Below are positions 2,781 to 62,110 of a stretch of DNA of 64,000 nt, piece after piece. This stretch comes from Chloroflexi bacterium bin125 (GTDB taxonomy: Bacteria; Chloroflexota; Dehalococcoidia; Bin125): the NCBI GenBank assembly GCA_002239025.1, contig MPNM01000003.1, positions 142,047 through 206,046 on the forward strand. The letters are read 5' to 3'. The stretch's first letter is position 1. Every line of letters starts with the position of its first letter. The position numbers and the translations under genes are program-made. Under the pieces are notes generated by a model that saw nothing but the letters and a program-made list of their open reading frames with translations, was not told the origin of the DNA and did not search any database.

Positions 2781-5309
2781 CTAGCGAATCACTTCCGAGA
2801 TCATCAGATCCGTCATCTCGTCCTCGCTCAGCCCCAGCACGTGTCGGTAGACCTCTTCGTTGTGCTCTCCGAAGAATGGCGCGCGACGGATCGGCAGACG
2901 TTCGCCGTTCCAGAGGAAGGGCTGATTCTGTGCCATGAACTTCATCCCGATCGGATGATCGAACTCGTGGAAGAACCCGTCTAGCGACGGATCGGATTCA
3001 ACCAGGTCCTGGATGTCCTCATTTGGACCAGCCGGGATGCCCGCCGCTACCAATATCTCCGTCGCTTCCCAGAGATCCTGGCAGGAGGTCCAGGCAGTGA
3101 CGGCCGACTCGATCTCCTCCTCGGCAGCCTTGCGGCCGCTCAACGTTCGTAGATCATCGCGAGCCGCAAGGTCATCGCGTCCAATGACGCGACACAACTC
3201 CAGCCAATCGACCGTGTTGCGCACATCAAGGGCCAGCCATTTGTCGTCGCCCGCGCATTGGAAGTTGCCGTGGGGCGACGACTCGGGTGATCGATTGCCA
3301 CGACGTGGCGGGGTCTCGCCGTTGGCCAGTTGCTCGATCAGTTCCGTGTCGAGCAAGTGGATGCCTGCCTCATACTGGGGAATCTCGACTTCCTGGCCGA
3401 CGCCGGTGCGCTCGCGCTGAATCAGTGCCGAGACGATGGCCGTCACGGCTAATGGCGCGAGTGTGAAGTCGGTGTGCAGCAGCACGCCGGTTGGCTTCCG
3501 ATCGGAGGGGCCGGTGTGTGCAGCCAGGCCACAGAGCGCAACGACGCTATTGCCGATGCCCTTCCACGACGCTTTCGGACCCCAGGTGCCCATCACCGGG
3601 AAACTGGCGCACACGATGCGCGGATTGATCTTCTTCAGGTCGTCATAGCCCAGGCCGAGGCGCTTCATCACGCCGCCGGTGAAGTTGTCGGTGACCACAT
3701 CCGCATCGCGGATCAGGTCGTAGGCGATGCGCAGGCCGTCAGGAGCGCTGAGATTGACATTGACGCTGCGCTTATCGGTGTTGCAGTCCTGGAAGAATGC
3801 CCCGGTCTCAATCGAGGGTGGATCGTGGGCATTGAGCGCGACGCGCAGCGTGTCAATCCGCGCGTCCGACTCAATCTTGATCACATCCGCGCCCAGATTC
3901 GCCATCAGCTCCGTCGTCAAAGGACCTGCCGCCTGCCAGCAGAAATCAATCACTCGAATGCCCTTGAGCGGCAGGTCATCGCGATCGATCGCTCGGCCCA
4001 AATGCGTGCCATTCTGCGCCGCATCAGTCAGAGGGCGTCTGCTCCGCGCGTTCCGCTCTCCCCCCGCTGAGCGGGGGGAGATGCCGAAGGCAGAGGGGGG
4101 TCCAACAACCAGCCCGCTTGCTGCCATTCGCTCATACTCGGCTTCGTCCACATCAAGCAGCTCTGCCAGCACATCAGCCGAGTCCGCTCCCAGCGTCGGC
4201 GCCGGACGCCCGACCGGCTCGTATCCGGTTGAATGGACTGGCAATCGCGGCAAATCAATCGTGCGATCAAACTGCGGATGTTCGACCGGCAAGAATGCGC
4301 CACGTTCGTGGAGATGCGGATCCTCAACAATGTCTTTGACCGAGTTCACCGGCACCACGAGGAAGCCTCGTGACTGTCCCTCGAAACACAGCTCGTCGCG
4401 TGGCAACGTGGCGCAGGCTCGCTGGAATGCCTGGTGCGTCTCGCTGCCCCAGTCAGGCATCCAGATGTCGCCCGGACGCTCAGTCCCAAGCAGCCCGTCG
4501 TAGCCAACCCGTTCATTCAACCACTCGGCGAAGGCGGCGTAGCGCTCGTCGGTGGTCGGCACGAGCCCGAACGTCACCCATTCGCCGTCCTTGGCCTGCA
4601 CGAGGAAGGAAATGTGGCCGCCCGGCCGGTACGCCTTCTCGCCCATGTGAACCCACATGTTCTCGTTGGCGAAGTGGATCGTGGTCGAGAGAATCGCCTC
4701 CTGTAGCGAGATGTACGCGTGGTTGGCTCGGTCGCCGTTGCGACGGTCGTAGAGCATGGCGGCCGCCGTCGCCGCGGCGACCTGGCTGGCCTGCTTGTAG
4801 GCCAGCCGTCCCGCCGGATAGTCGGGTGCGACCTCGGGGAACCCCAGACCCAGCATGAGACCGCCACTGGCGACACCGACAATGTCGGAGGCTGGCGGCT
4901 CTTCGCCACCGCGCCGCATGACGGCGTCAACAACCCCCAGGTGGGGATGCAAACGCTGCAGCCGCTCACGATCAAAGAAGCGGCGAGCGGAGGCAGACTT
5001 GTCCAATGGGGCCAGAACGACGTCGGCACCAGCCAACAGCCGATCAATCAGATCCCATGCGCCCGGCGCATCGAAGTTCAACGCCAGGCTGCGCTTGCCC
5101 GCGTTGTAGAGCAGGTGGCGCAGTCCGCTCTCAGGGTCGTTGTGTCCCTCAAGATGCGGACCAGCAATGCGCAGAGCGTCTCCGGCAGCGGACTCGACGC
5201 GAATCACGTCGGCGCCAAAGTCGGACAGCCAGCGAGCGCCGAGCACCAGGCACTCGTCGCTGAGGTCAATGACGACTGAGCCGGTCAGGGGAAGATCGGA
5301 TCCCTGCAT
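2781..5309 (-). CDS. Two complete CoA-transferase family III (CaiB/BaiF) modules of about 400 aa each in one open frame. This is either a fused didomain protein or two tandem paralog genes joined by an in-frame palindromic repeat.
   Basis: The track ORF 2781..5312 starts at TTG; ATG at 5309 is one codon later and overlaps the stop of the upstream crotonase gene (TGATG). Module 1 spans about 5309..4110 and module 2 about 3995..2781, beginning LPLKGIRVIDFCWQAAGP. The roughly 70 nt linker 4043..4112 is a family-1 repeat translated as PSAFGISPRSAGGE. A TTG start at about 4004 could alternatively begin a separate second gene. Confidence 0.6.
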   Translation of the reverse strand: MQGSDLPLTGSVVIDLSDECLVLGARWLSDFGADVIRVESAAGDALRIAGPHLEGHNDPESGLRHLLYNAGKRSLALNFDAPGAWDLIDRLLAGADVVLAPLDKSASARRFFDRERLQRLHPHLGVVDAVMRRGGEEPPASDIVGVASGGLMLGLGFPEVAPDYPAGRLAYKQASQVAAATAAAMLYDRRNGDRANHAYISLQEAILSTTIHFANENMWVHMGEKAYRPGGHISFLVQAKDGEWVTFGLVPTTDERYAAFAEWLNERVGYDGLLGTERPGDIWMPDWGSETHQAFQRACATLPRDELCFEGQSRGFLVVPVNSVKDIVEDPHLHERGAFLPVEHPQFDRTIDLPRLPVHSTGYEPVGRPAPTLGADSADVLAELLDVDEAEYERMAASGLVVGPPSAFGISPRSAGGERNARSRRPLTDAAQNGTHLGRAIDRDDLPLKGIRVIDFCWQAAGPLTTELMANLGADVIKIESDARIDTLRVALNAHDPPSIETGAFFQDCNTDKRSVNVNLSAPDGLRIAYDLIRDADVVTDNFTGGVMKRLGLGYDDLKKINPRIVCASFPVMGTWGPKASWKGIGNSVVALCGLAAHTGPSDRKPTGVLLHTDFTLAPLAVTAIVSALIQRERTGVGQEVEIPQYEAGIHLLDTELIEQLANGETPPRRGNRSPESSPHGNFQCAGDDKWLALDVRNTVDWLELCRVIGRDDLAARDDLRTLSGRKAAEEEIESAVTAWTSCQDLWEATEILVAAGIPAGPNEDIQDLVESDPSLDGFFHEFDHPIGMKFMAQNQPFLWNGERLPIRRAPFFGEHNEEVYRHVLGLSEDEMTDLMISEVIR
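4056..4100. repeat. Family-1 palindromic repeat unit (CTCTCCCCCC-gctgagc-GGGGGGAG + ATGCCGAAGGCAGAGGGGGG) lying in-frame inside the didomain CoA-transferase ORF
   Basis: Exact match to the family-1 core. The flanking 4043..4112 is the only non-CaiB-like part of the ORF. Confidence 0.85.
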
Positions 5310-10017: not shown

Positions 10018-10028
10018 GCAAAACAAAA

Positions 10029-10160
10029 GCTCCCCCTAAGGGGGTCTGTCGAGGTGATCTTTTCTCCCCCCTCTGGGGGGAGATGCCGAAGGCAGAGGGG
10101 GGCGCAGCGCAGAATATCCCCTCTGTCGCTCCGCGACATCTCCCCCGCGAGCGGGGGAGA
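10029..10160. repeat. Cluster of three family-1 repeat units (one short hairpin, one full unit, one inverted partial unit) between the DUF1501 and NHL genes
   Basis: gctccccctaagggggtc; tctcccccctctggggggagatgccgaaggcagagggggg at 10063..10102; cccctctgtcgctccgcgacatctcccccgcgagcgggggaga. Confidence 0.85.
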
Positions 10161-13215: not shown

Positions 13216-13267
13216 GCTCCCCCTCGCACGGGGAGCTGCCGAAGGCTGAGGGGGTCCCTGCAGGGTC
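13216..13267. repeat. Family-1 variant repeat (gctccccctcgcacggggagctgccgaaggctgagggggtccctgcagggtc)
   Basis: A GCTGCCGAAGGCTGAGGGGG tail variant. It lies between the amidohydrolase and NIPSNAP genes. Confidence 0.75.
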
Positions 13268-19906: not shown

Positions 19907-20020
19907 GAAAAAAGAGCTCCCCCTTTGGGGGAGCTGGCCCGCAGGGTCTGAGGGGGCTCCCGGCGACAAGCACTGTTCGTCGAGCCAGCCCCCTCGCCCG
20001 CTGCGCGGGAGCTCCCCCAA
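19907..20020. repeat. Two inverted family-1 variant units (gagctccccctttgggggagctgg... / ...gggagctcccccaaaggggagc)
   Basis: They lie in the intergenic region between the amidohydrolase-2 and 2-HADH genes. The palindromic arms ctccccc/ggggag are present. Confidence 0.75.
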
Positions 20021-20084
20021 AGGGGAGCCCATTGGATCTGTCCTACCATTCACCCAGCCACTCCAACCAACGAAAGACCCAACC

Positions 20085-21079: not shown

Positions 21080-21232
21080 GCTCCCCCTCGCAGGGGGAGC
21101 TCCCGCGAAGCGGGTGAGGGGGTCTCTCCGCTGCGACCGCTGAGCCAAGGCAGAGCGGTATCGCTGATCGCGACCGCTGAGCGGACCCCCTCCGTCATTT
21201 CGTGACACCTCCCCCTGCCAGGGGGAGGAAAG
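21080..21232. repeat. Composite repeat cluster combining family-1-like hairpins, a direct repeat (gcgaccgctgagc x2) and a family-2-like ctccgtcatttcg segment
   Basis: ttgctccccctcgcagggggagctcccgcgaagcgggtgagggggtc ... cctccgtcatttcgtgacacctccccctgccagggggagg. Confidence 0.7.
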
Positions 21233-22604: not shown

Positions 22605-22646
22605 CCTTCTGTCCCTTCTCCCTCTGGGAGATGATTAGGGTGAGGG
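22605..22646. repeat. Family-3 repeat (CCCTTCTCCCTCTGGGAGA-tgaTTAGGGTGAGGGC) immediately after the LLM gene stop
   Basis: It matches the copies at 30778, 58336 and 62946. Confidence 0.75.
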
Positions 22647-22678
22647 CCGACCGTCCGAGCGAGCAAACTGGAACTGCA

Positions 22679-23344: not shown

Positions 23345-23446
23345 GTCTGGGTCCAAGACGCAGGCACAACTCTCGTCATTCCTGCGCTCCGTCGCGGGAA
23401 TCTCGCCGCTGCCAGCACCTACGCCGTCCTTGCTCGAGCGGTTGTC

Positions 23447-24754
23447 CTACGGATTAAACACGTCCCGCTTGCCATTCCGACTCGACGAGGCCGCAAACGC
23501 AAAGATCCCGCGCGCCATCGACGAATCCTGCTCCGCTGCACGCGCGTCGTAAATCTCCGAGCGCAACTCATGCACATCTGGACTATTCGGAGCAGCCAAG
23601 GCTGCGCCCTCGATCAAATGACATGCCATCTGCAGGTTGCCGTTCTGCATGTGAGCCCGCGCCCGCTCCATCACCGGCTCCAGACCTCCGGCCAGCGTCA
23701 CCCATTCCGCCGCCTCTGCCGAGCGCGGCGCAGGCAGCAGCCGATCCGGCTCGCCCTCGTACCAGCCGCCGAAGTAGCGCCAGACACTGTGCACGATGAA
23801 CTCGGGATGGTCGTAGGCCGAACGCAGCCACGGCTTCTCCAACAGATGCTGCGGCATCTCAATCGAGTGCAGCACACGATCTAGCGTGTAACCCTCATTC
23901 ATCAGCGCCAGCGTCTGACTCTCGACCTCATCCAGCAAGTCGGCGGTGTCGGTCAGCGCCTCGGCGACCCGGTCGGCGCCGAAAATCGGGAAGCCGTGAC
24001 CCGGACTCATCACTTCTGCGCCCTTCGCTGCCATTTGCCGCAGCCCGGTCGCCCACTCACCGGCCCAGCGCTGCACCTTCTGCGGATTGCCTGCGTTCGG
24101 CACGGCCCAGATGAAGAGGTCGCCAGGGAACAGCCACTTCTTTTCCGGGATCCAGGTCCAGGCCGCATCCTCTGTCTCACCCCGCGTATGCGTGACCTCA
24201 AACGTCAGTTCACCAAACGAGAACCGCACCGCGTCGTCGAACGTCACGTCCGGATAGCGAAACTCATCCGGCCAAGGCAACCGCACCTGCGTCGCGTCCA
24301 TGCCCGGACGGATGAACTGCCGAGAATTGATCGCCGTGTTGTAGCCAACAGTCCGCTTGTATCGATCAAAGTGAGCCGGAATGTGCTGCTGTCCATAGAC
24401 CGTCGGACGCGCCTGCCCCTTGCTCGCCGCTTCCTCGTCGAACTTGTTCACGCCAAAGATGTGATCGACATGATGATGCGAGAACACCGCCGCTCGCAAC
24501 GGAGTATCGGGACGCCAATCGCGCACCGCCGAGAACAGCCCCTCAGCGTCCCGAGCCGTCCCCGTATCCAGCATCACCAGACCGTCGCCGGTGTCAATCG
24601 TGTTCATCGACGCCGCGGATTTGATGTAGAGGAAGTCGTCGCCAATCTCTTCCGGCTCACGGTTGTTCCAGGGTGAGGTCACCGGATGCGCCTCGGTGAT
24701 CGTGTCGATCTCGCCGCGCCATAGTCGATCGCAGTAGTCTCGGATATCTGGCAT
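23447..24754 (-). CDS. MBL-fold metallo-hydrolase with an alkyl-sulfatase-like dimerisation domain
   Basis: The product carries the metal-binding motif FSHHHVDHIFG. It is 435 aa and is a tandem paralog of the next gene. Confidence 0.7.
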   Translation of the reverse strand: MPDIRDYCDRLWRGEIDTITEAHPVTSPWNNREPEEIGDDFLYIKSAASMNTIDTGDGLVMLDTGTARDAEGLFSAVRDWRPDTPLRAAVFSHHHVDHIFGVNKFDEEAASKGQARPTVYGQQHIPAHFDRYKRTVGYNTAINSRQFIRPGMDATQVRLPWPDEFRYPDVTFDDAVRFSFGELTFEVTHTRGETEDAAWTWIPEKKWLFPGDLFIWAVPNAGNPQKVQRWAGEWATGLRQMAAKGAEVMSPGHGFPIFGADRVAEALTDTADLLDEVESQTLALMNEGYTLDRVLHSIEMPQHLLEKPWLRSAYDHPEFIVHSVWRYFGGWYEGEPDRLLPAPRSAEAAEWVTLAGGLEPVMERARAHMQNGNLQMACHLIEGAALAAPNSPDVHELRSEIYDARAAEQDSSMARGIFAFAASSSRNGKRDVFNP

Positions 24755-24886: not shown

Positions 24887-26200
24887 CTATGGATTGAACA
24901 GATCTCGCTTGCCGTCACGGCTCGACATCGCCGCGAATGAGAAGATGCCCCGCGCCATCGAGGAATCCTGCGCCTCGGCGCGAGCGTCGTAGACCTGCGC
25001 ACGCAACGTGTGCACATCCGGACTACTCGGGGCGGCGAGCGCCGCGCCTTCGACCAGGTGACAAGCCAGCTCCAAGTCGCCGTTTTGAAGATGAGTTCTC
25101 GCACGATCAAGTACCCACCCGAGCCCTCCCGCGAGCGTCACCCACTCAGCCGCCTCCGCCGCACGCGGCGCAGGCAACAACCGATCCGGCTCGCCCTCGT
25201 ACCAGCCTCCATAGAGTCGCCAAACGTTGTGGACGATGAACTCTGGACGGTCAAACGCCGACTTCAGCCACGGCTTATCGGTCAAGCGCTTCGGAATCTC
25301 GACGGTCTGCAATACCCGATCCAGGGTGTAACCCTCGTTCATCAGCGCCAACGTGTGACTCTCGATGTGTTCCAGGAGGTCGGCCGTGTCGGTCAGTGCT
25401 TCAGCGATCCGGTCAGCTCCGAAGATCGGCAATCCATGGCCTGGAACCATCAGCTCCGCGCCCTTGCCTGCCATCTGCCGCAGTCCAGCTGCCCACTCGC
25501 CCGGCCAGCGTTGAACCTTCTGCGGATTGCCGGCGTTGGGAACGGCCCAGATGAACAGATCCCCAGGAAACAGCCACTTACGCTCGGGAATCCAGACCCA
25601 GACCGCGTCCTCGGTCTCGCCGCGAGTGTTAGACAGTTCTAGCGTCATATCTCCTACAGAGACACGCAGCTTGTTGTCGAACGTCACATCGGGATAGCGA
25701 AACTCATTCGGCCAGAAGACTTGGCCCGATTCGGCGCTCATTCCCGGCCTGGCGCGCTGACGTGAATTGATCGCCCGGTTGTAACCCCAGGTGCGTCGAT
25801 AGCGATCAAAGTGACCCGGCATGGAGCGGTGCCCATACACCGTCGGCAGGGAGCGTCCCTTCGCGGCCGCCTCCTGCTCGAATGGCGCCATGCCAAAGAT
25901 GTGATCCGTGTGATGATGCGAAAACACAGCTGCTTGCAGCTCCGCCGATGGCCGCCAGTCCCTCACTCCTTCGTAGATGCGCTCGGTGTCATACTCCGTA
26001 CCGGTGTCCAGCATGACCAGTCCGTCGCCCGTATCGATCGTGCTCACCGACGCCACGGTTTTGTAGTACAGCAGTCCCTCTTCGATCTCCTCAGCCTCGC
26101 CGTCGTTCCAAAATCCGATGATCGGATGCAGTTCACGGACGGTGTCGATCTCGCCACGCCACATCCGATCGCAGAATTCCCTGAGATCCGGCATCGGCAT
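24887..26200 (-). CDS. MBL-fold metallo-hydrolase, tandem paralog of 23447..24754
   Basis: About 60% identity to its neighbour is visible along the whole length (MPDLREFCDRMWRGEIDTV... versus MPDIRDYCDRLWRGEIDTI..., both ending ...ARGIF.FAA.SSR.GKRD.FNP). Confidence 0.7.
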   Translation of the reverse strand: MPMPDLREFCDRMWRGEIDTVRELHPIIGFWNDGEAEEIEEGLLYYKTVASVSTIDTGDGLVMLDTGTEYDTERIYEGVRDWRPSAELQAAVFSHHHTDHIFGMAPFEQEAAAKGRSLPTVYGHRSMPGHFDRYRRTWGYNRAINSRQRARPGMSAESGQVFWPNEFRYPDVTFDNKLRVSVGDMTLELSNTRGETEDAVWVWIPERKWLFPGDLFIWAVPNAGNPQKVQRWPGEWAAGLRQMAGKGAELMVPGHGLPIFGADRIAEALTDTADLLEHIESHTLALMNEGYTLDRVLQTVEIPKRLTDKPWLKSAFDRPEFIVHNVWRLYGGWYEGEPDRLLPAPRAAEAAEWVTLAGGLGWVLDRARTHLQNGDLELACHLVEGAALAAPSSPDVHTLRAQVYDARAEAQDSSMARGIFSFAAMSSRDGKRDLFNP

Positions 26201-26301: not shown

Positions 26302-26610
26302 ATGCCGATGTACGAATACAAGTGCCCCACCTGCACCTACGTCTTCGATATCCTGGCCAAGATGGGCCAGGCCCCAGAGTCACCCGACTGCCCAGCCTGC
26401 GACGACGGAGTCGGCGACCGCGTCTTCGGCGCCGGCGTTGCGATCCACACCGGCTCCGGCGGTTCTTCCTTCGACGACTTCGACATGGGAGCGATGGGAG
26501 ATATGGGCATGCCCGACATGGGCGGCATGGGCATGGGAGGCCACGGTCACGACCACGGCCACAGCCACGACGACTTCGGCATGGGCGACTTCGGCATGGA
26601 CGACTTCTAG
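26302..26610 (+). CDS. FmdB-family zinc-ribbon protein with a Met/His/Asp/Gly-rich C-terminal tail
   Basis: A strong RBS AAGGAG sits 6 nt upstream. The N-terminal MPMYEYKCPTC...CPAC is the FmdB putative-regulatory zinc ribbon. The tail reads GAMGDMGMPDMGGMGMGGHGHDHGHSHDDFGMGDFGMDDF. Confidence 0.7.
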   Translation: MPMYEYKCPTCTYVFDILAKMGQAPESPDCPACDDGVGDRVFGAGVAIHTGSGGSSFDDFDMGAMGDMGMPDMGGMGMGGHGHDHGHSHDDFGMGDFGMDDF

Positions 26611-26660
26611 CCCAACACCAACAGCGCTCCGACCTCTGGGGAGGCTGCTGCCGCTGCTTC

Positions 26661-26740
26661 ATCTCCCCCCGAGGGGGGAGATGCCGCCCTTTCCCCCTTT
26701 CTCCCCCCTCTGGGGGGAGATGCCGAAGGCAGAGGGGGGC
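26661..26740. repeat. Two tandem family-1 units between the FmdB and mini-S26 peptidase genes
   Basis: atctccccccgaggggggagatgccgccc, and the perfect core tctcccccctctggggggagatgccgaaggcagagggggg at about 26700..26739. Confidence 0.85.
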
Positions 26741-29073: not shown

Positions 29074-29191
29074 AAATTTTCCAGTCCCCGCTTTACGCGG
29101 GGACCTGCTCCCTCCCTGTAGGGGACTCCACCACCAGATATCCCGTGTTGCCAGAGCGGGTCCCCGCGTAAAGCGGGGACTGGAATTTGAC
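29074..29191. mobile_element. Family-4 MITE-like element: inverted pair TCAAATTTTCCAGTCCCCGCTTTACGCGGGGAC ... GTCCCCGCGTAAAGCGGGGACTGGAATTTGACC flanking a core of about 50 bp
   Basis: The 33-nt TIRs are near-perfect. Single arms recur at 52337..52372 and 59736..59765. The element lies upstream of pyk. Confidence 0.7.
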
Positions 29192-33016: not shown

Positions 33017-33099
33017 GTCGCGATCCTACTTGCGGGTCCGTGCCCACGCGTGCCAACGACTCCATTTGTTCCCCCCTGGAGACCTGTACGCAATCCTCT

Positions 33100-33400
33100 T
33101 TCCTTACCCTTACAGGGGGAGGTGCCGAAGGCGGAGGGGGTTCCACTCGGCCAACCCTTGTCTGGTCGCCACCTCCGAGGGACCCCCTCAGCCACTCCGT
33201 GACAGCTCCCCCTGCGAGAGACTGATGCATATCCTCCGATTCCCCTCTCCCCCTTGCGGGGGGAGATGTCACAGAGTGACAGAAGGGGGGTCGGCTGGCG
33301 ACGACCAAATAGAGCCAACAGGCAGGGAACCCCTCTTCTGCCTTCGGCATCTCCCCCGCAAGGGGGGAGAAGGGGAGTAATGCATCAATCTCTGCGAGGG
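33100..33400. repeat. Nested repeat cluster of about 300 bp (family-1 units in both orientations plus composite element A at 33239..33376) between the SBP and permease genes of the oxyanion ABC operon
   Basis: cccttacagggggaggtgccgaaggcggaggggg; ccccctcagccactccgtgacagctccccc; attcccctctcccccttgcggggggagatgtcacagagtgacagaaggggggtcgg...cccctcttctgccttcggcatctcccccgcaaggggggagaaggggag. Confidence 0.8.
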
Positions 33401-37653: not shown

Positions 37654-37713
37654 GGCAACTCGGCGGTCACAGGCTCCCCGCTCCCCCGTTGCAGGGACCG
37701 ATGCGCAACCTCC

Positions 37714-37852
37714 AATTCCGCTCTCCCCCCTTGCGGGGGGAGATGTCACGGAGTGACAGAGGGGGGGTCGGTCGGTGACTAGCAGATAGAAGCTGCGGAC
37801 AGGATCCCCCTCTGCCTTCGGCATCTCCCCCGCAAGGGGGGAGAAGGAGAGG
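37714..37852. mobile_element. Composite family-1 element B of about 140 bp. Left arm CTCTCCCCCCTTGCGGGGGGAGATGTCACGGAGTGACAGAGGGGGGGTCGG, variable core of about 45 bp, right arm CCCCTCTGCCTTCGGCATCTCCCCCGCAAGGGGGGAGAAGGAGAGG.
   Basis: The same architecture with conserved arms and a different core is seen at 33239..33376, 52183..52322 and 57578..57739. Outer flanks share gatgcat...ctcc / gga..tgcatc. Confidence 0.75.
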
Positions 37853-37982
37853 TTTGCATCATTTTCTTCCAGGCACAGCTGCCAAAGAGCCTGCCCCCGG
37901 CTTGAACGGGGTCTGAGGGGGTCCCGCCCCTCTCGGCGAGAAGGTGCAAGGCCCTCCGGCCTACATCACATGTGACCTCGAA

Positions 37983-47292: not shown

Positions 47293-47339
47293 ACCTCCCC
47301 CCTTGGGGGAGGTGTTACGAAGTGACGGAGGGGGCTCCC
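47293..47339. repeat. Family-1 left-arm variant (CCTCCCCCCTTGGGGGAGGTGTTACGAAGTGACGGAGGGGGCTCCCC), single copy
   Basis: It lies between the FTR-like gene and rpsN. It has the same GTGACGGAGGGGG tail as the composite elements. Confidence 0.7.
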
Positions 47340-52133: not shown

Positions 52134-52182
52134 CGCCTGCTCCCTCCAGCCTCCCCCTTGCAGAGATCGATGCATTAGCTCC

Positions 52183-52322
52183 AATTCCCCTCTCCCCCCC
52201 TTGCGGGGTGAGATGTCACGGAGTGACAGAGGGGGGGTCGGTTGATGTTGACCAGATAGGGCTCCTGAGCAGAGGACCCCCCTCTGCCTTCGGCATCTCC
52301 CCCGCAAGGGGGGGAAGGGGAG
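52183..52322. mobile_element. Composite family-1 element C (about 140 bp) downstream of the FbpC-like ATPase gene
   Basis: attcccctctcccccccttgcggggtgagatgtcacggagtgacagagggggggtcgg ... ccccctctgccttcggcatctcccccgcaagggggggaaggggag. Confidence 0.75.
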
Positions 52323-52531
52323 TGTTTCTAAGGTCTCCGTAAAGCGGGGACTGGGATTCAACCAGCCAATTGAACTTCTGAGACACCCTCCAAGCCCGGG
52401 GCAACGACATCAGACGGGAGTGAAGGAAGAGGAGGCCGCGCCACTCTCAACGCCTGCTGCCCCTCGATTCACTGCCCCTTTACCATGCCAACACCGGCGC
52501 ATCGCCGATGCGCGTGGCAGGAGAAGCACCG

Positions 52532-54519: not shown

Positions 54520-54609
54520 ACGCTCCCCCTTTGGGGGATCTGTCCCGAAGGGACTGAGGGGGCCCGCCTCACATGGCGCAGCCCACCAGCACTGACACAG
54601 GAGCCAACC

Positions 54610-55707: not shown

Positions 55708-56796
55708 ATGGACTACGGACTGCTCGTCCCCACGTACGTCGACATGTGGAAGGAAGTCGTCCGCGCCGAGGAGGCCGGCTTCACCCACGCCTGGTTCCCC
55801 GACTCGCAACTGATCTGGTCCGACTGCTACGCCGCCATGGCGCTGGCCGCTGAGCGAACTTCGACGATCAAGCTCGGCACGCTCGTCTCGATTCCCTCCA
55901 ATCGAATCGCGCCTGTCACAGCCTCGGCGATCGCCACGATTAACAAGCTCGCGCCCGGCCGCACGATCCTCGCGCTCGGCACCGGATACACCGGTCGCAA
56001 CACGATGGGTCTGCCTTCGTACCCGGTCAAGAAGTTCCGCGAGTACGCCCAGCAGGTCCGAGACTTGCTGGATGGCAAGGACATCCGGCACACCGACGAT
56101 GTCACCGGTCGCGAGACCTGGATCCGCCTGATTCACCCGGACCATCCCGACTTCTACAACATCAAGGACCACATCCCGGTTTACATCGCCGCCAATGGAC
56201 CACGAGCAACCGCGGTCGTCGGCGAGGTCGGCGACGGCTTCGTCACCTCAGGTACCGGGCCATGGTTGGACTCAGCATTCCCAATCATCGAGGATGCCGC
56301 CCGTTCCGCTGGACGCACGACCGAAAAGCCATACACCGTCGGCCTGACCGGCGCCTGCGTCATGCAGGAGGGCGAAGAGATCATGTCCGAGCGTGTCATC
56401 CACCGTGCCGGCGCGGTTGCTGCCGTCTACAACCACACGCTCTGGGAGTCCGAGTACGGCGGCTGGGGAGGCAATCTCAAGGGCGTCAACCCCGACGCCG
56501 CGGCCGAGTACAACCAGTACATCACCAAGTATGCCGAGGAGCGCGGACGACCACTCGACCGCCTCTACCTCGATGTCCACGAAGGCCACTACAGCTACCT
56601 CAAAGAAGGCGAGGACCGCTTCATCACCCAGGACCGTCTCGACGACATGATCATCGGCACACCCAATCAGATCATCGAGAAATCCGAGATGGCTCAGGCA
56701 CACGGAGTCGACCACCTGGCGCTGACCGCCCTGGATCCCGCCGCCGCCAACGATCTCGTCGACGAAATGGCCCCAATCATCGCCCGCACGACCTAG
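55708..56796 (+). CDS. LLM-class F420-dependent oxidoreductase (tandem paralog 2)
   Basis: MDYGLLVPTY...AEEAGFTHAWFPDSQLIWSDCYAAMALAA. It is about 65-70% identical to the upstream gene and 362 aa long. Confidence 0.8.
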   Translation: MDYGLLVPTYVDMWKEVVRAEEAGFTHAWFPDSQLIWSDCYAAMALAAERTSTIKLGTLVSIPSNRIAPVTASAIATINKLAPGRTILALGTGYTGRNTMGLPSYPVKKFREYAQQVRDLLDGKDIRHTDDVTGRETWIRLIHPDHPDFYNIKDHIPVYIAANGPRATAVVGEVGDGFVTSGTGPWLDSAFPIIEDAARSAGRTTEKPYTVGLTGACVMQEGEEIMSERVIHRAGAVAAVYNHTLWESEYGGWGGNLKGVNPDAAAEYNQYITKYAEERGRPLDRLYLDVHEGHYSYLKEGEDRFITQDRLDDMIIGTPNQIIEKSEMAQAHGVDHLALTALDPAAANDLVDEMAPIIARTT

Positions 56797-56838
56797 ACCT
56801 CACCCTTCGCGGGAGGTCACACGAACCCCATTGCAGAC

Positions 56839-56883
56839 CTCCCCCTCTGGGGGAGGTGTCACGGAGTGACGGAGGGGGCTCCC
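56839..56883. repeat. Family-1 left-arm variant (CCTCCCCCTCTGGGGGAGGTGTCACGGAGTGACGGAGGGGGCTCCC) abutting the start codon of the alpha/beta hydrolase gene
   Basis: The repeat ends 1-2 nt before the ATG at 56885. Confidence 0.7.
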
Positions 56884-57526: not shown

Positions 57527-57577
57527 CTAACTCAGGAATCTGCTCGCCCTCGGTAGACAGTGATGCAAGACTCCCCA

Positions 57578-57739
57578 TTCCCCTCTCCCCCCATTGCGGA
57601 GGGAGATGTCACGGAGTGACAGAGGGGGGTCGGCTGGTGACGACTAGAAAGGCATGATGGGCAGAGAGCCCCCCTCTGCCCCCGGGTCAAGCCCGGGGCA
57701 GGCTTTCGGCATCTCCCCCGCAAGGGGGGAGAAGGGGAG
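57578..57739. mobile_element. Composite family-1 element D (about 160 bp) between the alpha/beta hydrolase and nitroreductase genes
   Basis: attcccctctccccccattgcggagggagatgtcacggagtgacagaggggggtcgg ... ggctttcggcatctcccccgcaaggggggagaaggggag. Confidence 0.75.
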
Positions 57740-57787
57740 CTATGGATCGGTCACTCGCTGGGGAACCGGCCGCGAAGCGATTGAGAT

Positions 57788-59986: not shown

Positions 59987-61972
59987 TCACTTCACATGCC
60001 GATCAAGCCAGGCGATCATCCGCTCGTAGTACTCCTTGACCATCGCCGGATCGCCAACTCTGAACATCGAGTGCGAGCAACCAGGGAACCGCACCATCTC
60101 CGCCGGCTTCCCCCGATACCGAAGTCCGGCGAAGTACTCCTCGCCCTGCGAAATCGGCACCCGCCAGTCCGACTCACCGTGCAAGATCAGTACCGGACAG
60201 CGCACGCTGTCGATATATGTGATCGGTGAGCGCTCCCGATACCAGTCGAAGTTGTCGTCCGGCACATCGCCCCACTGATACGAACCCCATGACGGCCCAA
60301 TATCCGACACGCCCCACATGGACCACAGATTCACCACCGGCGCACCCGCGATTGCCGCCTTGAATCGATTGACGTGCCCTATCAACCAGGTCGTCATGTA
60401 TCCACCATACGAATAGCCATGCACGCCGAGCCGATTGGCATCCACATACGGACGCTCACAAACCGCATCAAGCGCCTCAAGCAAATCGAACGAGTCCTCG
60501 CCGCCCCAATCGACGGTCACTGCATCGGTGAAGTTGGCCCCATACGTCGACGACCCACGAGGATTGACAAACAACACCAGGTATCCCGCGCCCGCGATCA
60601 CCTGGTGCAGAGCATTGAATCCCTCGCCAAAGAACCCATTCGGCCCACCATGAATCTCCATCACCAGCGGATAAGACTGGTCAGGATCAAATCCCGGCGG
60701 GTACATCAATCCACAGGGAATCTCCCACCCATCCCGCTCAACAGTGAAGAACTCAACTGCACCGATCTCGCGAGATTCAACGAAATCGGTAGCTGCATTC
60801 GTCAGCCGGCTCTCTTTTCTCCCCCCCTTGGGGGGAGATGCCGAAGGCAGAGGGGGGCTCCCCGTTTGCACTGACACAACCTCCCCAGGACCATCCGGAG
60901 TCGTTGAAACAACCGCTAGCAACGCTCCATCAGCCGACACGTCAAACCCATTGATCAACTCGGCTTCAGCCCGAATCGTCTCGGGTTCCCCCAAGCCCTC
61001 GGCCGACACTCGGTACACGCCTGAGCGTCCACGTACATCGGCGGCAAACGTGATCCCCTCATCCGTCCAGACCATCTTCGGCGGGCCAGAGATCGGAAAG
61101 AATCCCGATTGCGGATTGACCGAGTCGTCCGTCAGCCGGGTCCGCTCGCCGCTATAGCGCTCAACCCGCTCGAGATACGCCTGGTGGCGCTGCGACATGT
61201 CAGTCACCGATACCGCCAACGACAACCCACCCGGCGACCAACAGGCCCGTCCAGCCGACATCACTCCTGGCGTCAGTCGTTCAACATGCCCGCCGCCAGC
61301 CACGCCCTGAGTCGACATCACGCACAGCTCGGATCCAAACGGACGCCGCCGCTCACGATCCACGTTGCGGTCGGCCGTGAACGCCACCCACCGACCATCC
61401 GGCGAGACCACCGGATGCGCATGGTTGTACGTCCCGCTCGTCAACTGAAGCTCGCAACCAGTCGAGGCGTCAACCCGAAACAGTTGATGCCACGCATCCT
61501 CGCGATAACCCAATACATCGCCCCGATAGTACGTTTCACGCACAACGGTCGTCTTTGAGCCGTCGCGCTGGCCACGATGAGGGTCAATATCCACGACCGC
61601 AATCATTCCCGAGCCGTCCGGCAGCCAGTCAAACCCGGCCACGGAGTGCTCCAGGTTCGTCAGTCGTCGAGCCTCGCCGCCGTCCGTCGGAAGCAACCAG
61701 ATCTGCCGAGGCGCTCCTGCCTCAGCCGAGGACGGCCGCAGAAACGCCAGCACTGATCCGTCCGGAGCCCAAACCGGACTCGAGTCCGAGTCACCCGAAG
61801 TCAGCCCCCTCGATTCGCCACCCTCGAACGGAGCGCACTCAATCCAGGAAACCCGCTTGCCTTCCTGAACTTGGCCGCGAACATAAGCAACCACCAACCC
61901 ATCCGGCGAAATCGCCGGAGCCCCAACCCCACCCAACTCAAACGCAATCTCCGGCCCAATCGGAGTCTTCAT
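59987..61972 (-). CDS. S9-family serine peptidase (prolyl-oligopeptidase/acylaminoacyl-peptidase type) with an N-terminal beta-propeller
   Basis: The start was chosen at M31 of the track ORF; the first 30 codons are repeat-derived. The catalytic domain has GVHGYSYGGYMT (Ser) with downstream Asp and His, and the propeller shows repeated PDG...VA blades. A family-1 repeat is in-frame at the domain boundary at about 60817..60862. Confidence 0.8.
   Translation of the reverse strand: MKTPIGPEIAFELGGVGAPAISPDGLVVAYVRGQVQEGKRVSWIECAPFEGGESRGLTSGDSDSSPVWAPDGSVLAFLRPSSAEAGAPRQIWLLPTDGGEARRLTNLEHSVAGFDWLPDGSGMIAVVDIDPHRGQRDGSKTTVVRETYYRGDVLGYREDAWHQLFRVDASTGCELQLTSGTYNHAHPVVSPDGRWVAFTADRNVDRERRRPFGSELCVMSTQGVAGGGHVERLTPGVMSAGRACWSPGGLSLAVSVTDMSQRHQAYLERVERYSGERTRLTDDSVNPQSGFFPISGPPKMVWTDEGITFAADVRGRSGVYRVSAEGLGEPETIRAEAELINGFDVSADGALLAVVSTTPDGPGEVVSVQTGSPPLPSASPPKGGRKESRLTNAATDFVESREIGAVEFFTVERDGWEIPCGLMYPPGFDPDQSYPLVMEIHGGPNGFFGEGFNALHQVIAGAGYLVLFVNPRGSSTYGANFTDAVTVDWGGEDSFDLLEALDAVCERPYVDANRLGVHGYSYGGYMTTWLIGHVNRFKAAIAGAPVVNLWSMWGVSDIGPSWGSYQWGDVPDDNFDWYRERSPITYIDSVRCPVLILHGESDWRVPISQGEEYFAGLRYRGKPAEMVRFPGCSHSMFRVGDPAMVKEYYERMIAWLDRHVK
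60817..60862. repeat. Family-1 repeat unit lying in-frame inside the S9 peptidase ORF at the propeller/catalytic-domain boundary
   Basis: tctcccccccttggggggagatgccgaaggcagaggggggctcccc. It is translated (minus strand) as ..PPLPSASPPKGGRKES.. Confidence 0.85.
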
Positions 61973-61988
61973 CGCCTGTCCCTTCTTT

Positions 61989-62110
61989 GCTCCCCCTGCA
62001 GGGCGAGCTGCCGAATCAATTTCACGCTTCCCTTGCAAGGCGAATTGCCGAATCGATTTCACGCTCCCCCTTGCAGGGGGAGCTGCCGCAGGCTGAGGGG
62101 GTCCCTCCCC
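61989..62110. repeat. Family-1 variant cluster (gctccccctgcagggcgagctgccgaatcaatttcacgc x2, then ctcccccttgcagggggagctgccgcaggctgagggggtccc) between the S9 peptidase and alpha/beta hydrolase genes
   Basis: The cluster contains a direct duplication of about 38 nt plus a palindromic unit. Confidence 0.75.

What the first reader, a model, noticed from the sequence alone, without database searches (positions are those of the whole stretch)
26661..26740. Extremely dense family-1 GC-rich palindromic repeat (about 20 copies in 64 kb) filling most intergenic gaps
The core TCTCCCCCC-nnnn-GGGGGGAG-ATGCCGAAGGCAGAGGGGGG, or its variant ...ATGTCACGGAGTGACAGAGGGGGGG, recurs at approximately 4056, 10029-10160 (x3), 13216, 19907-20020 (x2), 21080-21232, 26661-26740 (x2), 33100-33400 (x4 or more), 37670-37935, 47293, 52150-52322, 56839, 57578-57739, 60817 and 61989-62110 (x2), in both orientations. 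In the six-frame track the copies show up as recurring spurious peptides (..MPKAEGG.., ..LCLRHLPPEGGE.., ..GISPRKGGE..). Each unit is a hairpin plus a conserved single-stranded tail. This density (about one copy per 3 kb) is comparable to REP/BIME or RPE-rich genomes and will strongly affect assembly, transcript termination and mRNA stability. The tail ATGCCGAAGGCAGAGGGGGG reads as a strong SD-like GGAGG/GGGGG stretch on one strand, which could sequester or mimic ribosome binding sites.
Basis: seen in the sequence. Interest (0 to 1): 0.6.

Follow-up and report, generated by a model that had tools for sequence, protein, structure and literature searches.

The report
Triplex-type GC-rich mini repeat family
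The flagged sequence is a real, very abundant 40-45-base DNA repeat built as hairpin, mini-hairpin and mirror copy of the hairpin's G-arm. This layout is known from the E. coli BoxC/PIT "intrastrand triplex" repeats, but this version is undescribed, occurs in many bacterial phyla and even sits in-frame inside genes.

Summary
The window holds 24 full or nearly full units plus at least 5 fragments, on both strands, against about 0 expected by chance.

The anatomy is more specific than "hairpin plus tail". Each unit reads x-CTCCCCC, loop, GGGGGAG-X, T, a mini-hairpin with a C(GNA)G loop, then X'-GAGGGGG. The last block is the mirror image of the hairpin's purine arm, and three positions covary as T:A·A, C:G·G or G:C·T (165 of 179 units). 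That is the pattern of a class II purine-motif intrastrand DNA triplex, the kind already described as BoxC/PIT/TMECO.

It is genome-wide in Dehalococcoidia genomes. It also occurs in Pasteurellaceae, Rhizobiales, Bacteroidota, Negativicutes, Saccharibacteria, Cyanobacteria and on viral contigs.

Copies turn over quickly between 90-95% identical genomes. Some lie in-frame inside enzymes, including an S9 peptidase in this window. Units avoid divergent promoter gaps, and their orientation follows local GC skew.

No RAYT/IS200 gene and no Rfam family was found. The best reading is a selfish DNA-level repeat whose propagating machinery is unknown. Triplex formation is inferred, not shown.

The parts
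4057..4100 (+). Unit, A-type (T:A·A), mini-hairpin TGCCGAAGGC. It lies inside the 843-aa ORF 2781-5312(-), between two CoA_transf_3 domains, and is read as ..GPPSAFGISPRSAGGE..
10026..10062 (+). Fragment: hairpin 1 only (GCTCCCCCTAAGGGGG) with a decayed 3' part
10063..10102 (+). Unit, A-type, GAA loop. The whole 10018-10170 cluster is absent from the syntenic locus L012.
10118..10160 (-). Unit, A-type, mini-hairpin TGTCGCGGAGCGAC. It is the inverted partner of 10063.
13216..13254 (+). Unit, C-type (G:C·T), GAA loop. L012 has an A-type unit at the same spacer.
19916..19956 (+). Unit, C-type, mini-hairpin TGGCCCGCAGGGTC
19989..20028 (-). Unit, C-type with X'=C, mini-hairpin TCCCGCGCAGCGGG
21080..21122 (+). 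Unit, C-type, mini-hairpin TCCCGCGAAGCGGG
21184..21229 (-). Unit, G-type (C:G·G), mini-hairpin TGTCACGAAATGAC (slightly decayed)
26659..26699 (+). Truncated unit: hairpin 1 plus ATGCCG, broken inside the mini-hairpin. This is the first half of the flagged interval.
26700..26739 (+). Unit, A-type, GAA loop. This is the second half of the flagged interval.
33097..33142 (+). Unit, G-type, with a decayed C-arm (CCTTACCC)
33183..33216 (-). Host unit, C-type. The loop of its hairpin 1 is interrupted by the 177-nt element. The rest of its hairpin (GCGAGGGGGAGC) resumes at 33394-33405.
33217..33393 (.). 177-nt composite element (MITE-like). Its terminal inverted repeats are AGAGACTGATGCAT...ATGCATCAATCTCT. 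It carries two inverted units (33245-33291 + and 33330-33370 -) and is flanked by the 3-bp duplication GCG.
37693..37867 (.). 175-nt composite element carrying units 37722-37767 (+, GGA loop) and 37806-37844 (-, GAA loop). It sits in a GCTCCCCC-GTTGC host hairpin. As ssDNA it folds at -53 kcal/mol, z = -6.7.
47294..47334 (+). Unit, G-type, mini-hairpin TGTTACGAAGTGAC
52162..52345 (.). Composite element with a decayed right end, carrying units 52190-52238 (+) and 52277-52318 (-). It is absent from the 92%-identical locus L123, which keeps an uninterrupted host hairpin there.
54521..54564 (+). Unit, C-type with a decayed G-arm (GGGGGATC), mini-hairpin TGTCCCGAAGGGAC.
56795..56837 (+). Decayed unit-like fragment
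56838..56878 (+). Unit, G-type, GGA loop. L123 has a different, C-type unit in the same spacer.
57555..57755 (.). 201-nt composite element carrying units 57584-57629 (+) and 57670-57735 (-). The second unit has an extra hairpin inserted in its mini-hairpin. The element is absent from L123.
60818..60857 (+). Unit, A-type, GAA loop, in-frame inside the S9 peptidase gene 59987-61972(-). It is read as ..GSPPLPSASPPKGGRKE.. Orthologs lack it or carry a unit in the opposite orientation.
61985..62062 (+). Two truncated tandem copies (hairpin 1 plus CTGCCGAAT..TTTCAC). The copy number is 3 here, 5 in L124 and 1 in L123.
62063..62101 (+). Unit, C-type, GCA loop

Best explanation
Family 1 is a dispersed, fast-turning-over, non-coding DNA repeat of the "intrastrand triplex" kind (class II purine motif, like BoxC/PIT/TMECO).

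Structure of the G-rich strand, in order:
1. A pyrimidine arm, x-CTCCCCC.
2. A free loop.
3. The Watson-Crick purine arm, GGGGGAG-X.
4. One T.
5. A compact mini-hairpin closed by C(GNA)G.
6. A third arm, X'-GAGGGGG, which is the mirror image of the purine arm.

Proposed mechanism: when this strand is single-stranded, the two hairpins stack, and the 3' arm can fold back antiparallel to the purine arm. This would form 8-9 C:G·G and T:A·A triplets, with the mini-hairpin serving as the second loop.

Selection appears to act on this DNA fold, not on a protein or a known RNA. The element behaves as selfish DNA. It multiplies to about one copy per 2.5 kb in some Dehalococcoidia, has crossed phylum boundaries, and is gained, lost, inverted and tandemly amplified between close relatives. 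It is tolerated downstream of genes and in protein surface loops because the commonest forms have no stop codon in any frame.

Shown here: the repeat family, its anatomy, the triplet covariation, the strand-specific GNA loop, the distribution, the turnover, the in-frame insertions and the orientation bias.

Inferred: triplex formation itself, the single-stranded stage, and selfish propagation. The enzyme or host process that copies the units is unknown.
For: Non-random family:
-.

Mirror architecture and covariation:
- X/X' pairs are AA 141, CT 48, GG 30 and other 15, in 234 units.
- Full triplets (x, X, X') are TAA 104, GCT 41, CGG 20 and other 14, in 179 units.
- The three types recur with different mini-hairpins and in unrelated taxa.
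- At a second position, G-arm GGGGAAG goes with third arm GAAGGGG and C-arm CTTCCCC. This holds in both Chloroflexota C-type and Pasteurellaceae G-type units.
- C:G·G and T:A·A are the reverse-Hoogsteen triplets of the antiparallel purine motif (PMC2532714; PMC4666352).

Strand-specific constraint:
- The mini-hairpin loop is always GNA on the G strand, with N being any base.
- The hairpin-1 loop is free and occurs in both orientations: 12 GC-GNA-GC against 13 GC-TNC-GC.
- Stem changes in the mini-hairpin are compensatory: GCC/GGC, GTCAC/GTGAC, GTCGC/GCGAC, GTCCC/GGGAC.

Folding:
- ssDNA folding gives hairpin 1 (9 bp) abutting hairpin 2, with the G tail left free. Energies are -13 to -16 kcal/mol, z = -2.4 to -3.5.

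Precedent:
- The related TMECO oligonucleotide forms a stable triplex by CD and NMR, and purine-motif triplexes do not form in RNA (PMC4666352).

DNA-level asymmetry:
- The G strand of single units lies on the locally C-rich strand 52:16 (p = 1.4e-5).
- This holds in every gene-strand-bias stratum, while the sense-strand skew of genes is about 0.

Mobility and turnover:
- Units are absent or different at orthologous spacers in L012 and L123.
- Tandem copy number is 1, 3 or 5 in close relatives.
- The same S9 peptidase loop is empty, occupied, or occupied in the opposite orientation in different orthologs.

Spread:
- Units occur in low-GC genomes of many phyla, inside MnmE, IMPDH, MetRS and other genes.
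- They also occur in Rhizobiales replicons and on 7 viral contigs.

Negative evidence for alternatives:
- No Rfam family matches.
Against: - No experiment here shows a triplex. For TMECO, no triplex was seen in duplex DNA or by in vivo DMS footprinting (PMC4666352).
- The C-type terminal triplet G:C·T is not a canonical purine-motif triplet. I could not confirm the antiparallel T·CG triplet in the papers I read.
- Three founder subfamilies inherited by descent could produce part of the X/X' correlation.
- No target-site duplication or clean insertion boundary was resolved for single units, because the spacers are too diverged.
- No mobilising enzyme was found.
- The orientation bias rests on 8-kb local skew taken as a proxy for replication direction. 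Its polarity is ambiguous, because in the window the C-rich strand also carries most genes.
- My gene calls in the loci are a crude GC3-based approximation.
Confidence: 0.55

Rival explanations
1. This is a REP/BIME-type element in the strict sense. The units would be the non-autonomous partners of a RAYT/IS200-like HUH tyrosine transposase encoded elsewhere in the genome. That enzyme would recognise the hairpin on single-stranded DNA and cut next to it. The mirror arm would be a guide or cleavage-site sequence rather than a triplex strand.
For: - The units are GC-rich palindromes found as singles and inverted dimers, at high copy, mostly downstream of genes.
- Orientation is linked to strand asymmetry, as expected for elements processed on one replication strand.
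- The GNA mini-hairpin points to a single-stranded DNA form.
- Tagged REP superfamilies are also cross-phylum and sometimes intragenic (PMC3733652).
Against: - There is no GTAG or CGTC tag next to the hairpin. The flanks are simply pyrimidine-rich.
- No tblastn hit to RAYT or IS200 TnpA was found in 1.02 Mb of window plus loci.
- Single copies exist in genomes such as Haemophilus, Flavobacteriaceae and Saccharibacteria, where no partner gene was looked for.
- A guide-sequence role would not by itself predict a full 8-9-nt mirror repeat with triplet covariation.
Confidence: 0.15
2. This is an RNA-level cis element. When transcribed at the 3' ends of genes, the two hairpins would protect mRNAs from 3' exonucleases, or act as terminators or attenuators. 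Under this reading the G-rich tail is the reader's SD-like sequence.
For: - Units are enriched between convergent genes (54) and in tandem gene gaps (88), and are rare in divergent gaps (6).
- There is a mild excess of sense over antisense orientation, 53 against 35.
- Hairpin 1 is a strong 9-bp GC stem.
Against: - Both orientations are common, so there is no single transcribed strand.
- No T/U run follows the hairpins, as the sequences show directly.
- The loop is a GNA triloop, typical of stable DNA mini-hairpins (my own knowledge), rather than GNRA or UNCG.
- The mirror arm and its covariation have no explanation in Watson-Crick RNA folding, and purine-motif triplexes do not form in RNA (PMC4666352).
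- Orientation tracks GC skew independently of gene strand.
- PIT elements showed no promoter or terminator activity (PMC4666352).
- No Rfam match was found.
- Copies inside coding regions are translated, not terminal.
Confidence: 0.12
3. This is a host-beneficial DNA structural element. The fold would be kept because it pauses replication or promotes recombination and local rearrangement ("genome plasticity"), or because it is the binding site of a nucleoid or repair protein.
For: - Spacers carrying units are remodelled between 90-95% identical genomes, while the flanking genes stay conserved.
- TMECO sites are more variable than control spacers in E. coli, and R-type triplexes can arrest polymerases (PMC4666352).
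- Orientation is biased relative to strand asymmetry.
Against: - Copy number ranges from hundreds per genome to one, and the element is absent from E. coli. This fits a parasite better than a conserved host function.
- In-frame insertions in housekeeping enzymes look like tolerated accidents.
- No associated protein was identified.
- Instability is equally expected as a side effect of a selfish repeat.
Confidence: 0.15

Closest known systems
BoxC / PIT elements / TMECO: intrastrand triplex repeats of E. coli and other bacteria (Hoyne and Maher 2000; Holder et al. 2015, PMC4666352)
   Same: - Same strand layout: pyrimidine arm, loop, purine arm, loop, then the mirror purine arm. This is the class II purine motif with C:G·G and T:A·A/T triplets.
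- 8-9-nt arms.
- Multi-copy, mostly intergenic.
- Singles and inverted ("palindromic") pairs.
- No linked transposase.
- Associated with variable spacers.
- The window also carries exact matches to the TMECO consensus itself at 30779-30811 and 62948-62980.
   Different: - Different arm sequence: CTCCCCC/GGGGGAG against CCCTCNCCC/GGGNGAGGG.
- The second loop is T plus a 9-13-nt self-folding C(GNA)G mini-hairpin, 10-14 nt in all. TMECO has 3 nt there, so family 1 falls outside the 1-6-nt loop limit of the ITxF search and at or beyond the 0-10-nt limit of Hoyne et al..
- Its sequences are absent from the supplementary tables held for that paper.
- It is absent from 5,426 E. coli genomes.
- Intragenic in-frame copies exist, whereas TMECO is "always intergenic" in E. 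coli.
- It shows an orientation bias with GC skew, whereas none was reported for TMECO.
REP/BIME elements and their RAYT transposases; GTAG- and CGTC-tagged REP superfamilies (Di Nocera et al. 2013, PMC3733652)
   Same: - Short GC-rich palindromes.
- High copy number.
- Dimers in alternating orientation.
- Location downstream of genes.
- Cross-phylum families, with some intragenic copies.
   Different: - No GTAG or CGTC tag.
- The unit is not a simple palindrome. It has a second hairpin and a mirror arm.
- No RAYT gene was found.
Rickettsia palindromic elements (RPE; Ogata et al. 2000, cited from memory and via PMC3733652)
   Same: Small palindromic repeats inserted in-frame into protein-coding genes and tolerated as extra surface peptide segments.
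   Different: - RPEs are longer (about 100-150 bp) and confined to Rickettsia.
- Some RPEs are CGTC-tagged.
- No triplex architecture has been reported for them.
d(GCGAAGC)-type GNA triloop DNA mini-hairpins (Hirao, Yoshizawa and colleagues; from my own knowledge, not checked here)
   Same: The second hairpin always has a C(GNA)G loop, with any base at N. Many hairpin-1 loops read GCGAAGC exactly.
   Different: That is a structural motif, not a genetic element. Its unusual stability in these units was not measured here.
IS1397/ISKpn1-type insertion into REP loops (from memory); MITEs in general
   Same: - The 175-201-nt composite element has terminal inverted repeats.
- It is flanked by a 3-bp duplication (TGC, CGC or GCG).
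- It sits specifically in the loop of hairpin 1 of a host unit.
   Different: - No full-length autonomous copy was found in the sequence available.
- The composite carries two family-1 units as cargo.

Membership tests
Intrastrand triplex repeats (class II purine motif; BoxC/PIT/TMECO) | Three consecutive blocks on one strand: a pyrimidine block, its Watson-Crick purine complement, and a third block that is the mirror image of the purine block | tested here: met
   All canonical units have this layout, e.g. CTCCCCCC..GGGGGGAG(A)..(A)GAGGGGGG.
Intrastrand triplex repeats (class II purine motif; BoxC/PIT/TMECO) | Triplets follow the C:G·G and T:A·A/T rules over at least 6-8 positions with at most one mismatch | tested here: met
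   There are 8-9 triplets per unit. At the variable end position 165 of 179 units keep TAA, CGG or GCT. A second covarying position was found in two lineages. The G:C·T triplet of C-type units is non-canonical.
Intrastrand triplex repeats (class II purine motif; BoxC/PIT/TMECO) | Short unstructured loops (ITxF 1-6 nt; Hoyne et al. 0-10 nt; TMECO second loop 3 nt) | tested here: not met
   Loop 1 is 2-9 nt. Loop 2 is 10-14 nt and forms its own hairpin.
Intrastrand triplex repeats (class II purine motif; BoxC/PIT/TMECO) | TMECO consensus CCCTCNCCC-N3-6-GGGNGAGGG-N3-GGGNGAGGG | tested here: not met
   Family 1 does not fit this consensus. A different repeat in the window does, at 30779-30811 and 62948-62980.
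Intrastrand triplex repeats (class II purine motif; BoxC/PIT/TMECO) | Triplex formation by the single strand in vitro (CD, NMR, melting) | not testable with these tools
   Nearest-neighbour folding only shows two hairpins and a free G tail.
REP/BIME with RAYT | Conserved unpaired GTAG (or CGTC) tetranucleotide at one end of the palindrome | tested here: not met
   The flank profile of 179 units shows pyrimidine-rich flanks (5' TTCCYC, 3' YYCCCC) and no tag.
REP/BIME with RAYT | A RAYT (Y1 HUH transposase) gene in the genome, typically flanked by the repeats | tested here: inconclusive
   No tblastn hit at E of 1 or less in 1.02 Mb. The queries were recalled from memory, and whole genomes were not available.
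REP/BIME with RAYT | Clusters of units in alternating orientation | tested here: met
   Inverted dimers lie at 10063/10118, 19916/19989 and 21080/21184, and inside the composite elements.
MITE | Terminal inverted repeats and a target-site duplication | tested here: inconclusive
   This is met for the 175-201-nt composite element (3-bp duplication). It is not resolved for the single 40-45-nt unit, because the spacers are too diverged.
Intrinsic (Rho-independent) terminator | GC-rich hairpin immediately followed by a T/U run | tested here: not met
   Hairpin 1 is followed by the mini-hairpin and a G run, and the 3' flank is C-rich.
Any Rfam RNA family | Match at the gathering score | tested here: not met
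   There were 0 matches in the window and in 19 loci, and only chance-level miRNA hits in the E-value mode.

The most novel reading that the evidence does not exclude
A 40-45-nt DNA element is kept intact across at least seven bacterial phyla and on phage-like contigs, because an intrastrand purine-motif triplex clamped by a GNA mini-hairpin is the structure through which it is copied or inserted. The machinery would be either an unknown structure-specific enzyme or a universal replication or repair process. The triplet covariation would then be the first comparative evidence that an intrastrand DNA triplex forms and matters in living bacteria.
Probability: 0.3. Interest if true: 0.8.

Novelty: new variant of a known kind. 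Interest (0 to 1): 0.6.

Why it matters
Whether intrastrand DNA triplexes ever form in living bacteria is unsettled. The E. coli motif folds in vitro but gave no in vivo footprint (PMC4666352).

This family adds a different kind of evidence: three-way covariation, a strand-specific GNA loop, and an orientation bias tied to strand asymmetry. All three point to selection on a single-stranded DNA fold. The result makes the question testable with simple oligonucleotide biophysics and with compensatory triple mutants.

There are also practical consequences:
- The repeat inflates ORF calls, because the commonest forms have no stop codon in any frame.
- It fuses or extends genes and inserts peptides such as PSAFGISP or GEMPKAEGG into real enzymes.
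- It creates variable tandem arrays and breaks assemblies in sponge-type and other Dehalococcoidia genomes.

Its presence in Haemophilus, Rhizobiales, Bacteroidota, candidate-phyla bacteria and viral contigs shows that very small structured repeats can cross phylum boundaries.

Tried and rejected
- **DGR, retron or RT-associated RNA:** considered when the motif turned up in Dialister, Saccharibacteria and Bacteroidota. Rejected because the contexts are unrelated housekeeping genes and spacers.
- **DUF559 endonuclease partner:** the unit overlaps the 3' end of a DUF559 ORF in Aggregatibacter and H. haemolyticus. However, tblastn found DUF559 next to units only in those two loci, and a literature search on DUF559 gave nothing relevant.
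- **Rfam:** no family matched at gathering score in the window or in 19 loci. The E-value mode gave only chance miRNA-like hits.
- **Alternative Watson-Crick pairing of the C-arm with the 3' G-arm (a switch):** at most 5-6 pairs are possible, and this does not explain the X' covariation (own inspection of the sequences).
- **Covariance model of the unit:** abandoned because MAFFT could not keep the C-arm in register across the variable loop 1. Regular expressions and fuzzy matching were used instead.
- **Full-length autonomous copy of the 177-nt composite element:** the only candidate pair of ends, in L027, was spurious.
- **RAYT/IS200 search:** no hits, but the queries were recalled from memory.
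- **Exact insertion boundaries or target duplication of single units:** not resolvable, even against 90-95% identical relatives, because the spacers are remodelled.
- **Rhizobial RIME elements:** a literature search did not settle whether the Rhizobiales variant has a published name.
- **Antiparallel T·CG triplet:** I could not confirm it in the papers read. Only a T·CG triple in the pyrimidine motif is cited there.
Full report
**1. Observation**

The flagged interval 26661-26740 reads CATCTCCCCCCGAGGGGGGAGATGCCGCCCTTTCCCCCTTTCTCCCCCCTCTGGGGGGAGATGCCGAAGGCAGAGGGGGG. It is a truncated copy followed by a full copy.

The family is far beyond chance, judged against dinucleotide-preserving shuffles:
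- The 20-nt tail has 9 matches at 3 or fewer mismatches, with 0.01 expected.
- The hairpin motif has 8 matches, with 0.09 expected.
- The TGTCACGGAGTGAC variant has 5 matches, with 0 expected.

Regular-expression, fuzzy and manual cataloguing gives 17 canonical units, 7 near-full units and at least 5 fragments, on both strands.

Units occupy 13 of 54 intergenic gaps, or 13 of the 32 gaps of 40 nt or more. Two copies lie inside ORFs. The window is 62% GC with a uniformly negative GC skew.

**2. Anatomy**

Every unit reads, 5' to 3' on its G-rich strand:
- x-CTCCCCC (seg 1)
- a loop of 2-9 nt
- GGGGGAG-X (seg 2)
- a single T
- a mini-hairpin G-stem-C(GNA)G-stem-C of 9-13 nt
- X'-GAGGGGG (seg 3)

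These parts are documented.

Seg 1 and seg 2 form a 8-9-bp hairpin. Seg 3 is not a repeat or a complement of seg 2 but its mirror image.

The mini-hairpin stems vary by compensatory changes (GCC/GGC, GTCAC/GTGAC, GTCGC/GCGAC, GTCCC/GGGAC, CCCGC/GCGGG). Its loop is always G-N-A, with all four bases seen at N.

By contrast, loop 1 is free. When it has the GC-NNN-GC form it occurs in both orientations, 12 GNA-type against 13 TNC-type. The GNA loop is therefore constrained on one strand only.

Folded as single-stranded DNA, the two hairpins abut and the G tail stays free. Energies are -13 to -16 kcal/mol, with z = -2.4 to -3.5.

**3. Three-way covariation**

The base after seg 2 (X), the base before seg 3 (X') and the base before seg 1 (x) covary.
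- X/X' pairs are AA 141, CT 48, GG 30 and all others 15, in 234 units.
- Full triplets (x, X, X') are T,A,A 104; G,C,T 41; C,G,G 20; others 14, in 179 units.

The three types are combined freely with different mini-hairpins. Each recurs in unrelated taxa. For example, C/T occurs in Haemophilus, Dialister, Clostridia and Marinilabiliaceae. G/G occurs in Leptobacterium, Phenylobacterium and Anaerolineales. A/A occurs in Flavobacteriaceae, Saccharibacteria and Paceibacterota.

A second position behaves the same way. Seg 2 GGGGAAG goes with seg 3 GAAGGGG and seg 1 CTTCCCC, in Chloroflexota C-type units (L005, L071, L086) and in Pasteurellaceae G-type units (L013, L046, L048). This holds in 7 of about 9 cases.

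T:A·A and C:G·G are exactly the reverse-Hoogsteen triplets of the antiparallel purine ("GA") triplex motif (PMC2532714).

In one cyanobacterial copy (L057) the pyrimidine arm lies downstream of seg 3 instead of upstream of seg 2. That is the mirror arrangement.

**4. Known kind**

A literature search led to Holder et al. 2015 (PMC4666352). That paper describes "intrastrand triplex" repeats.

Its class II purine motifs run from a 5' pyrimidine arm, through a purine arm, to a 3' reverse-Hoogsteen arm. The best studied is BoxC, also called PIT element or TMECO: CCCTCNCCC-N3-6-GGGNGAGGG-N3-GGGNGAGGG.

What that paper reports:
- As an oligonucleotide TMECO forms a very stable triplex (CD, NMR).
- No triplex was seen in duplex DNA or by in vivo DMS footprinting.
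- PIT elements had no promoter or terminator activity.
- TMECO sites sit in unusually variable spacers.
- No transposase is linked to them.
- Purine-motif triplexes do not form in RNA.

Family 1 has the same architecture but a different consensus. Its second loop of 10-14 nt is itself a hairpin. This is outside the 1-6-nt loops searched by ITxF and at or beyond the 0-10-nt limit of Hoyne et al..

The family-1 sequences are not in the supplementary tables held for that paper. The paper contains no covariation analysis.

The window also contains the TMECO pattern itself, at 30779-30811 and 62948-62980, with decayed copies at 22603 and 58327. Similar sequence is present in 5,374 of 5,426 complete E. 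coli genomes. Family 1 is absent from all of them.

**5. Distribution**

Most are Dehalococcoidia or Chloroflexota genomes, several from sponge-type bins. Hits are spread all round complete chromosomes, for example OZ242281.1 from 72 kb to 3.33 Mb. The family is therefore genome-wide there.

The same unit, embedded in locally low-GC sequence, occurs in:
- Aggregatibacter, Haemophilus influenzae, H. haemolyticus and Actinobacillus
- Dialister and Clostridia
- two Saccharibacteria and a Paceibacterota
- Flavobacteriaceae, Aequorivita, Leptobacterium, Lentimicrobiaceae, Paludibacteraceae and Marinilabiliaceae
- a cyanobacterium and Phenylobacterium

Other collections:
- Rhizobiales replicons (Sinorhizobium, Shinella, Rhizobium and others) carry a variant whose mini-hairpin has a GGCA tetraloop.
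- Deposited phage genomes gave no match.
- Seven IMG/VR viral contigs carry units.
- Some Anaerolineales, Bacteroidota-labelled and viral copies have hairpin 1 extended (CCTCCCCCAAAT...ATTTGGGGGAGG) around a variable insert.

**6. Behaviour**

(a) *In-frame copies in genes.* In other taxa the unit sits inside MnmE, an NPPF/Y methyltransferase, IMP dehydrogenase, methionyl-tRNA synthetase, an E2 acyltransferase linker and an RHS protein.

In the window it sits inside an S9 peptidase, read as ..GSPPLPSASPPKGGRKE... Orthologs of that peptidase differ at this loop:
- 82-87% identical orthologs lack the segment.
- 92-96% identical orthologs have it.
- Another clade carries a unit at the same loop in the opposite orientation (SPPAERGEMPKAEGG).

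At the DNA level the net gains are 42 and 39 nt. The commonest A- and G-type units have no stop codon in any of the six frames.

(b) *Turnover.* Locus L123 is 90-94% identical to window 50156-63986 and collinear with it. Every spacer is nevertheless remodelled. There is a different unit type at 56.8 kb. The composite elements at 52.2 and 57.6 kb are absent. L012 lacks the whole 10018-10170 cluster.

(c) *Tandem amplification.* Truncated units, broken within the mini-hairpin, number 3 copies at 61985-62101, 5 in L124 and 1 in L123.

(d) *Position relative to genes.* With the unit oriented as +, the flanking gene arrangements in GC-rich loci are ++ 53, -- 35, convergent 54, divergent 6 and intragenic 19. 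Promoter gaps are avoided, but there is no single transcribed orientation.

(e) *Orientation relative to strand asymmetry.* The G strand of single units lies on the locally C-rich strand 52:16 (p = 1.4e-5). This holds whatever the local gene-strand bias: 39 of 52 against 12 of 42. The sense-strand skew of genes is about 0. All single units of the window follow the rule. This points to a replication-linked, DNA-level asymmetry. Its polarity is uncertain, because the C-rich strand of the window also carries most genes.

**7. A nested element**

Four 175-201-nt composites lie at 33217, 37693, 52162 and 57555. Each consists of terminal inverted repeats AGAGAYYGATGCAY...RTGCATCRRTCTCT around two inverted units. 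As ssDNA one of them folds at -53 kcal/mol, z = -6.7.

In the window and in L061, L075, L091 and L117 they sit in the loop of hairpin 1 of a host unit. They are flanked by a 3-bp duplication, for example C5-T-TGC-[element]-TGC-A-G5, or CGC/GCG.

They behave as MITEs that target the hairpin loop. This is reminiscent of IS1397/ISKpn1 in REP loops (from memory). No autonomous copy was found.

**8. Interpretation**

The best-supported reading is a selfish, DNA-level repeat of the intrastrand-triplex kind. Its conserved feature is a single-strand fold: hairpin, GNA mini-hairpin as a compact second loop, and a third arm able to lie antiparallel on the purine arm.

Shown here:
- the family and its anatomy
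- the covariation
- the strand-specific loop
- the spread across taxa
- the turnover
- the in-frame tolerance
- the orientation bias

Inferred:
- that the triplex forms
- that the relevant state is single-stranded DNA
- that propagation is parasitic

How units are copied is unknown. No RAYT/IS200 gene was detected in 1.02 Mb, with queries recalled from memory. No clean single-unit insertion boundary could be resolved.

Rivals that remain open are a REP/RAYT-type mobilisation, an RNA 3'-end role and an adaptive "plasticity" role. The evidence for and against each is given in the report sections.

Weak points:
- The G:C·T end triplet is non-canonical.
- Descent from three founder subfamilies could explain part of the correlation.
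- My gene calls in the loci are crude.
- Local skew is only a proxy for replication direction.

**9. Verdict**

By its defining architecture, however, the element belongs with BoxC/PIT/TMECO-type intrastrand triplex repeats.

It is a previously undescribed variant of that kind, marked by three things:
- a structured second loop
- its own consensus
- cross-phylum and intragenic occurrence

Noticed in passing
window 30779-30811 (+), 62948-62980 (-); decayed copies 22603-22647, 58327-58371: This is a second repeat family. It matches the published E. coli BoxC/TMECO triplex consensus exactly (CCCTCTCCCTCTGGGAGAGGGTTAGGGTGAGGG). Similar sequence is present in 5,374 of 5,426 E. coli genomes, so the E. 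coli motif also occurs in this Chloroflexota-like genome.
   Followed up: partly
window 11232-11266, 23371-23405, 59801-59835, 59920-59951 (-); also in L123: This is a third repeat family, CGTCATTCCTGCGCTCCGTCGCGGGAATCTCG. It is a palindrome preceded by CGTC and looks like the CGTC-tagged REP superfamily of Di Nocera et al. 2013.
   Followed up: partly
window 29081-29116, 31418-31453, 59738-59773: This is a fourth small hairpin repeat, CCAGTCCCCGCTTTACGCGGGGACC, followed by a C/T-rich tail. It is conserved in L123.
   Followed up: no
window 33217-33393, 37693-37867, 52162-52345, 57555-57755; L061, L075, L091, L117: These 175-201-nt MITE-like elements have ends AGAGAYYGATGCAY. They are inserted in the loop of hairpin 1 of a host unit with a 3-bp target duplication, and each carries two inverted family-1 units. 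No autonomous partner was found.
   Followed up: partly
window 61985-62101; L124 6030-6310 and 4870-5270; L123 9800-10035: Truncated units form tandem arrays whose copy number differs between 90-95% identical genomes (1, 3 or 5). The junction always lies inside the mini-hairpin, after GCCGAA.
   Followed up: partly
window 2781-5312 (-): An uninterrupted 843-aa ORF contains two complete CoA_transf_3 domains joined through a family-1 unit (..GPPSAFGISPRSAGGE..). It is either a real fusion or two genes whose separating stop codon was lost at the repeat.
   Followed up: partly
window 41049-41311, inside ORF 40557-41801 (+): This is a 9-nt periodic coding repeat rich in Asp, His, Gln and Glu codons (GACCAACACGACCAGGACGAT...), that is, a low-complexity acidic/histidine-rich protein segment.
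   Followed up: no
window 26302-26610 (+): A small zinc-ribbon protein (Pfam Zn_ribbon_8) has a Gly/Met/His/Asp-rich C-terminal tail (..MGGMGMGGHGHDHGHSHDDFGMGDF..). It ends about 50 nt upstream of the flagged repeats.
   Followed up: partly
window 1-64000: GC skew is negative in nearly every 2-kb bin, falling from about 0 to -0.22, although about 70% of the predicted genes are on the + strand. The C-rich strand is therefore the gene-rich strand here.
   Followed up: partly
window 54610-55698 / 55708-56796 and 23447-24754 / 24887-26200: These are tandem paralogous gene pairs, 75-78% identical in DNA. The first pair are luciferase-like monooxygenases according to the Pfam labels on the syntenic L123 genes. 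They are separated by short spacers, some of which carry units.
   Followed up: no
L098 7080-7464 (Paludibacteraceae isolate); similar flanks in L017, L100, L106 (Dialister / Paludibacteraceae): A 190-bp block containing a unit plus two other small hairpins is tandemly duplicated in a spacer between a 295-aa ORF and a 152-aa ORF (neither was run against Pfam; from memory their translations look like YicC and ribulose-phosphate 3-epimerase). The same flanking sequence appears in bins labelled as different phyla.
   Followed up: no
L048 640-800 (Haemophilus influenzae M10489): Two units (one C-type, one G-type GAAG variant) lie tail to tail just downstream of rpoB, in what I take to be the rpoB-rpoC spacer. 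The rpoC side was not examined.
   Followed up: partly
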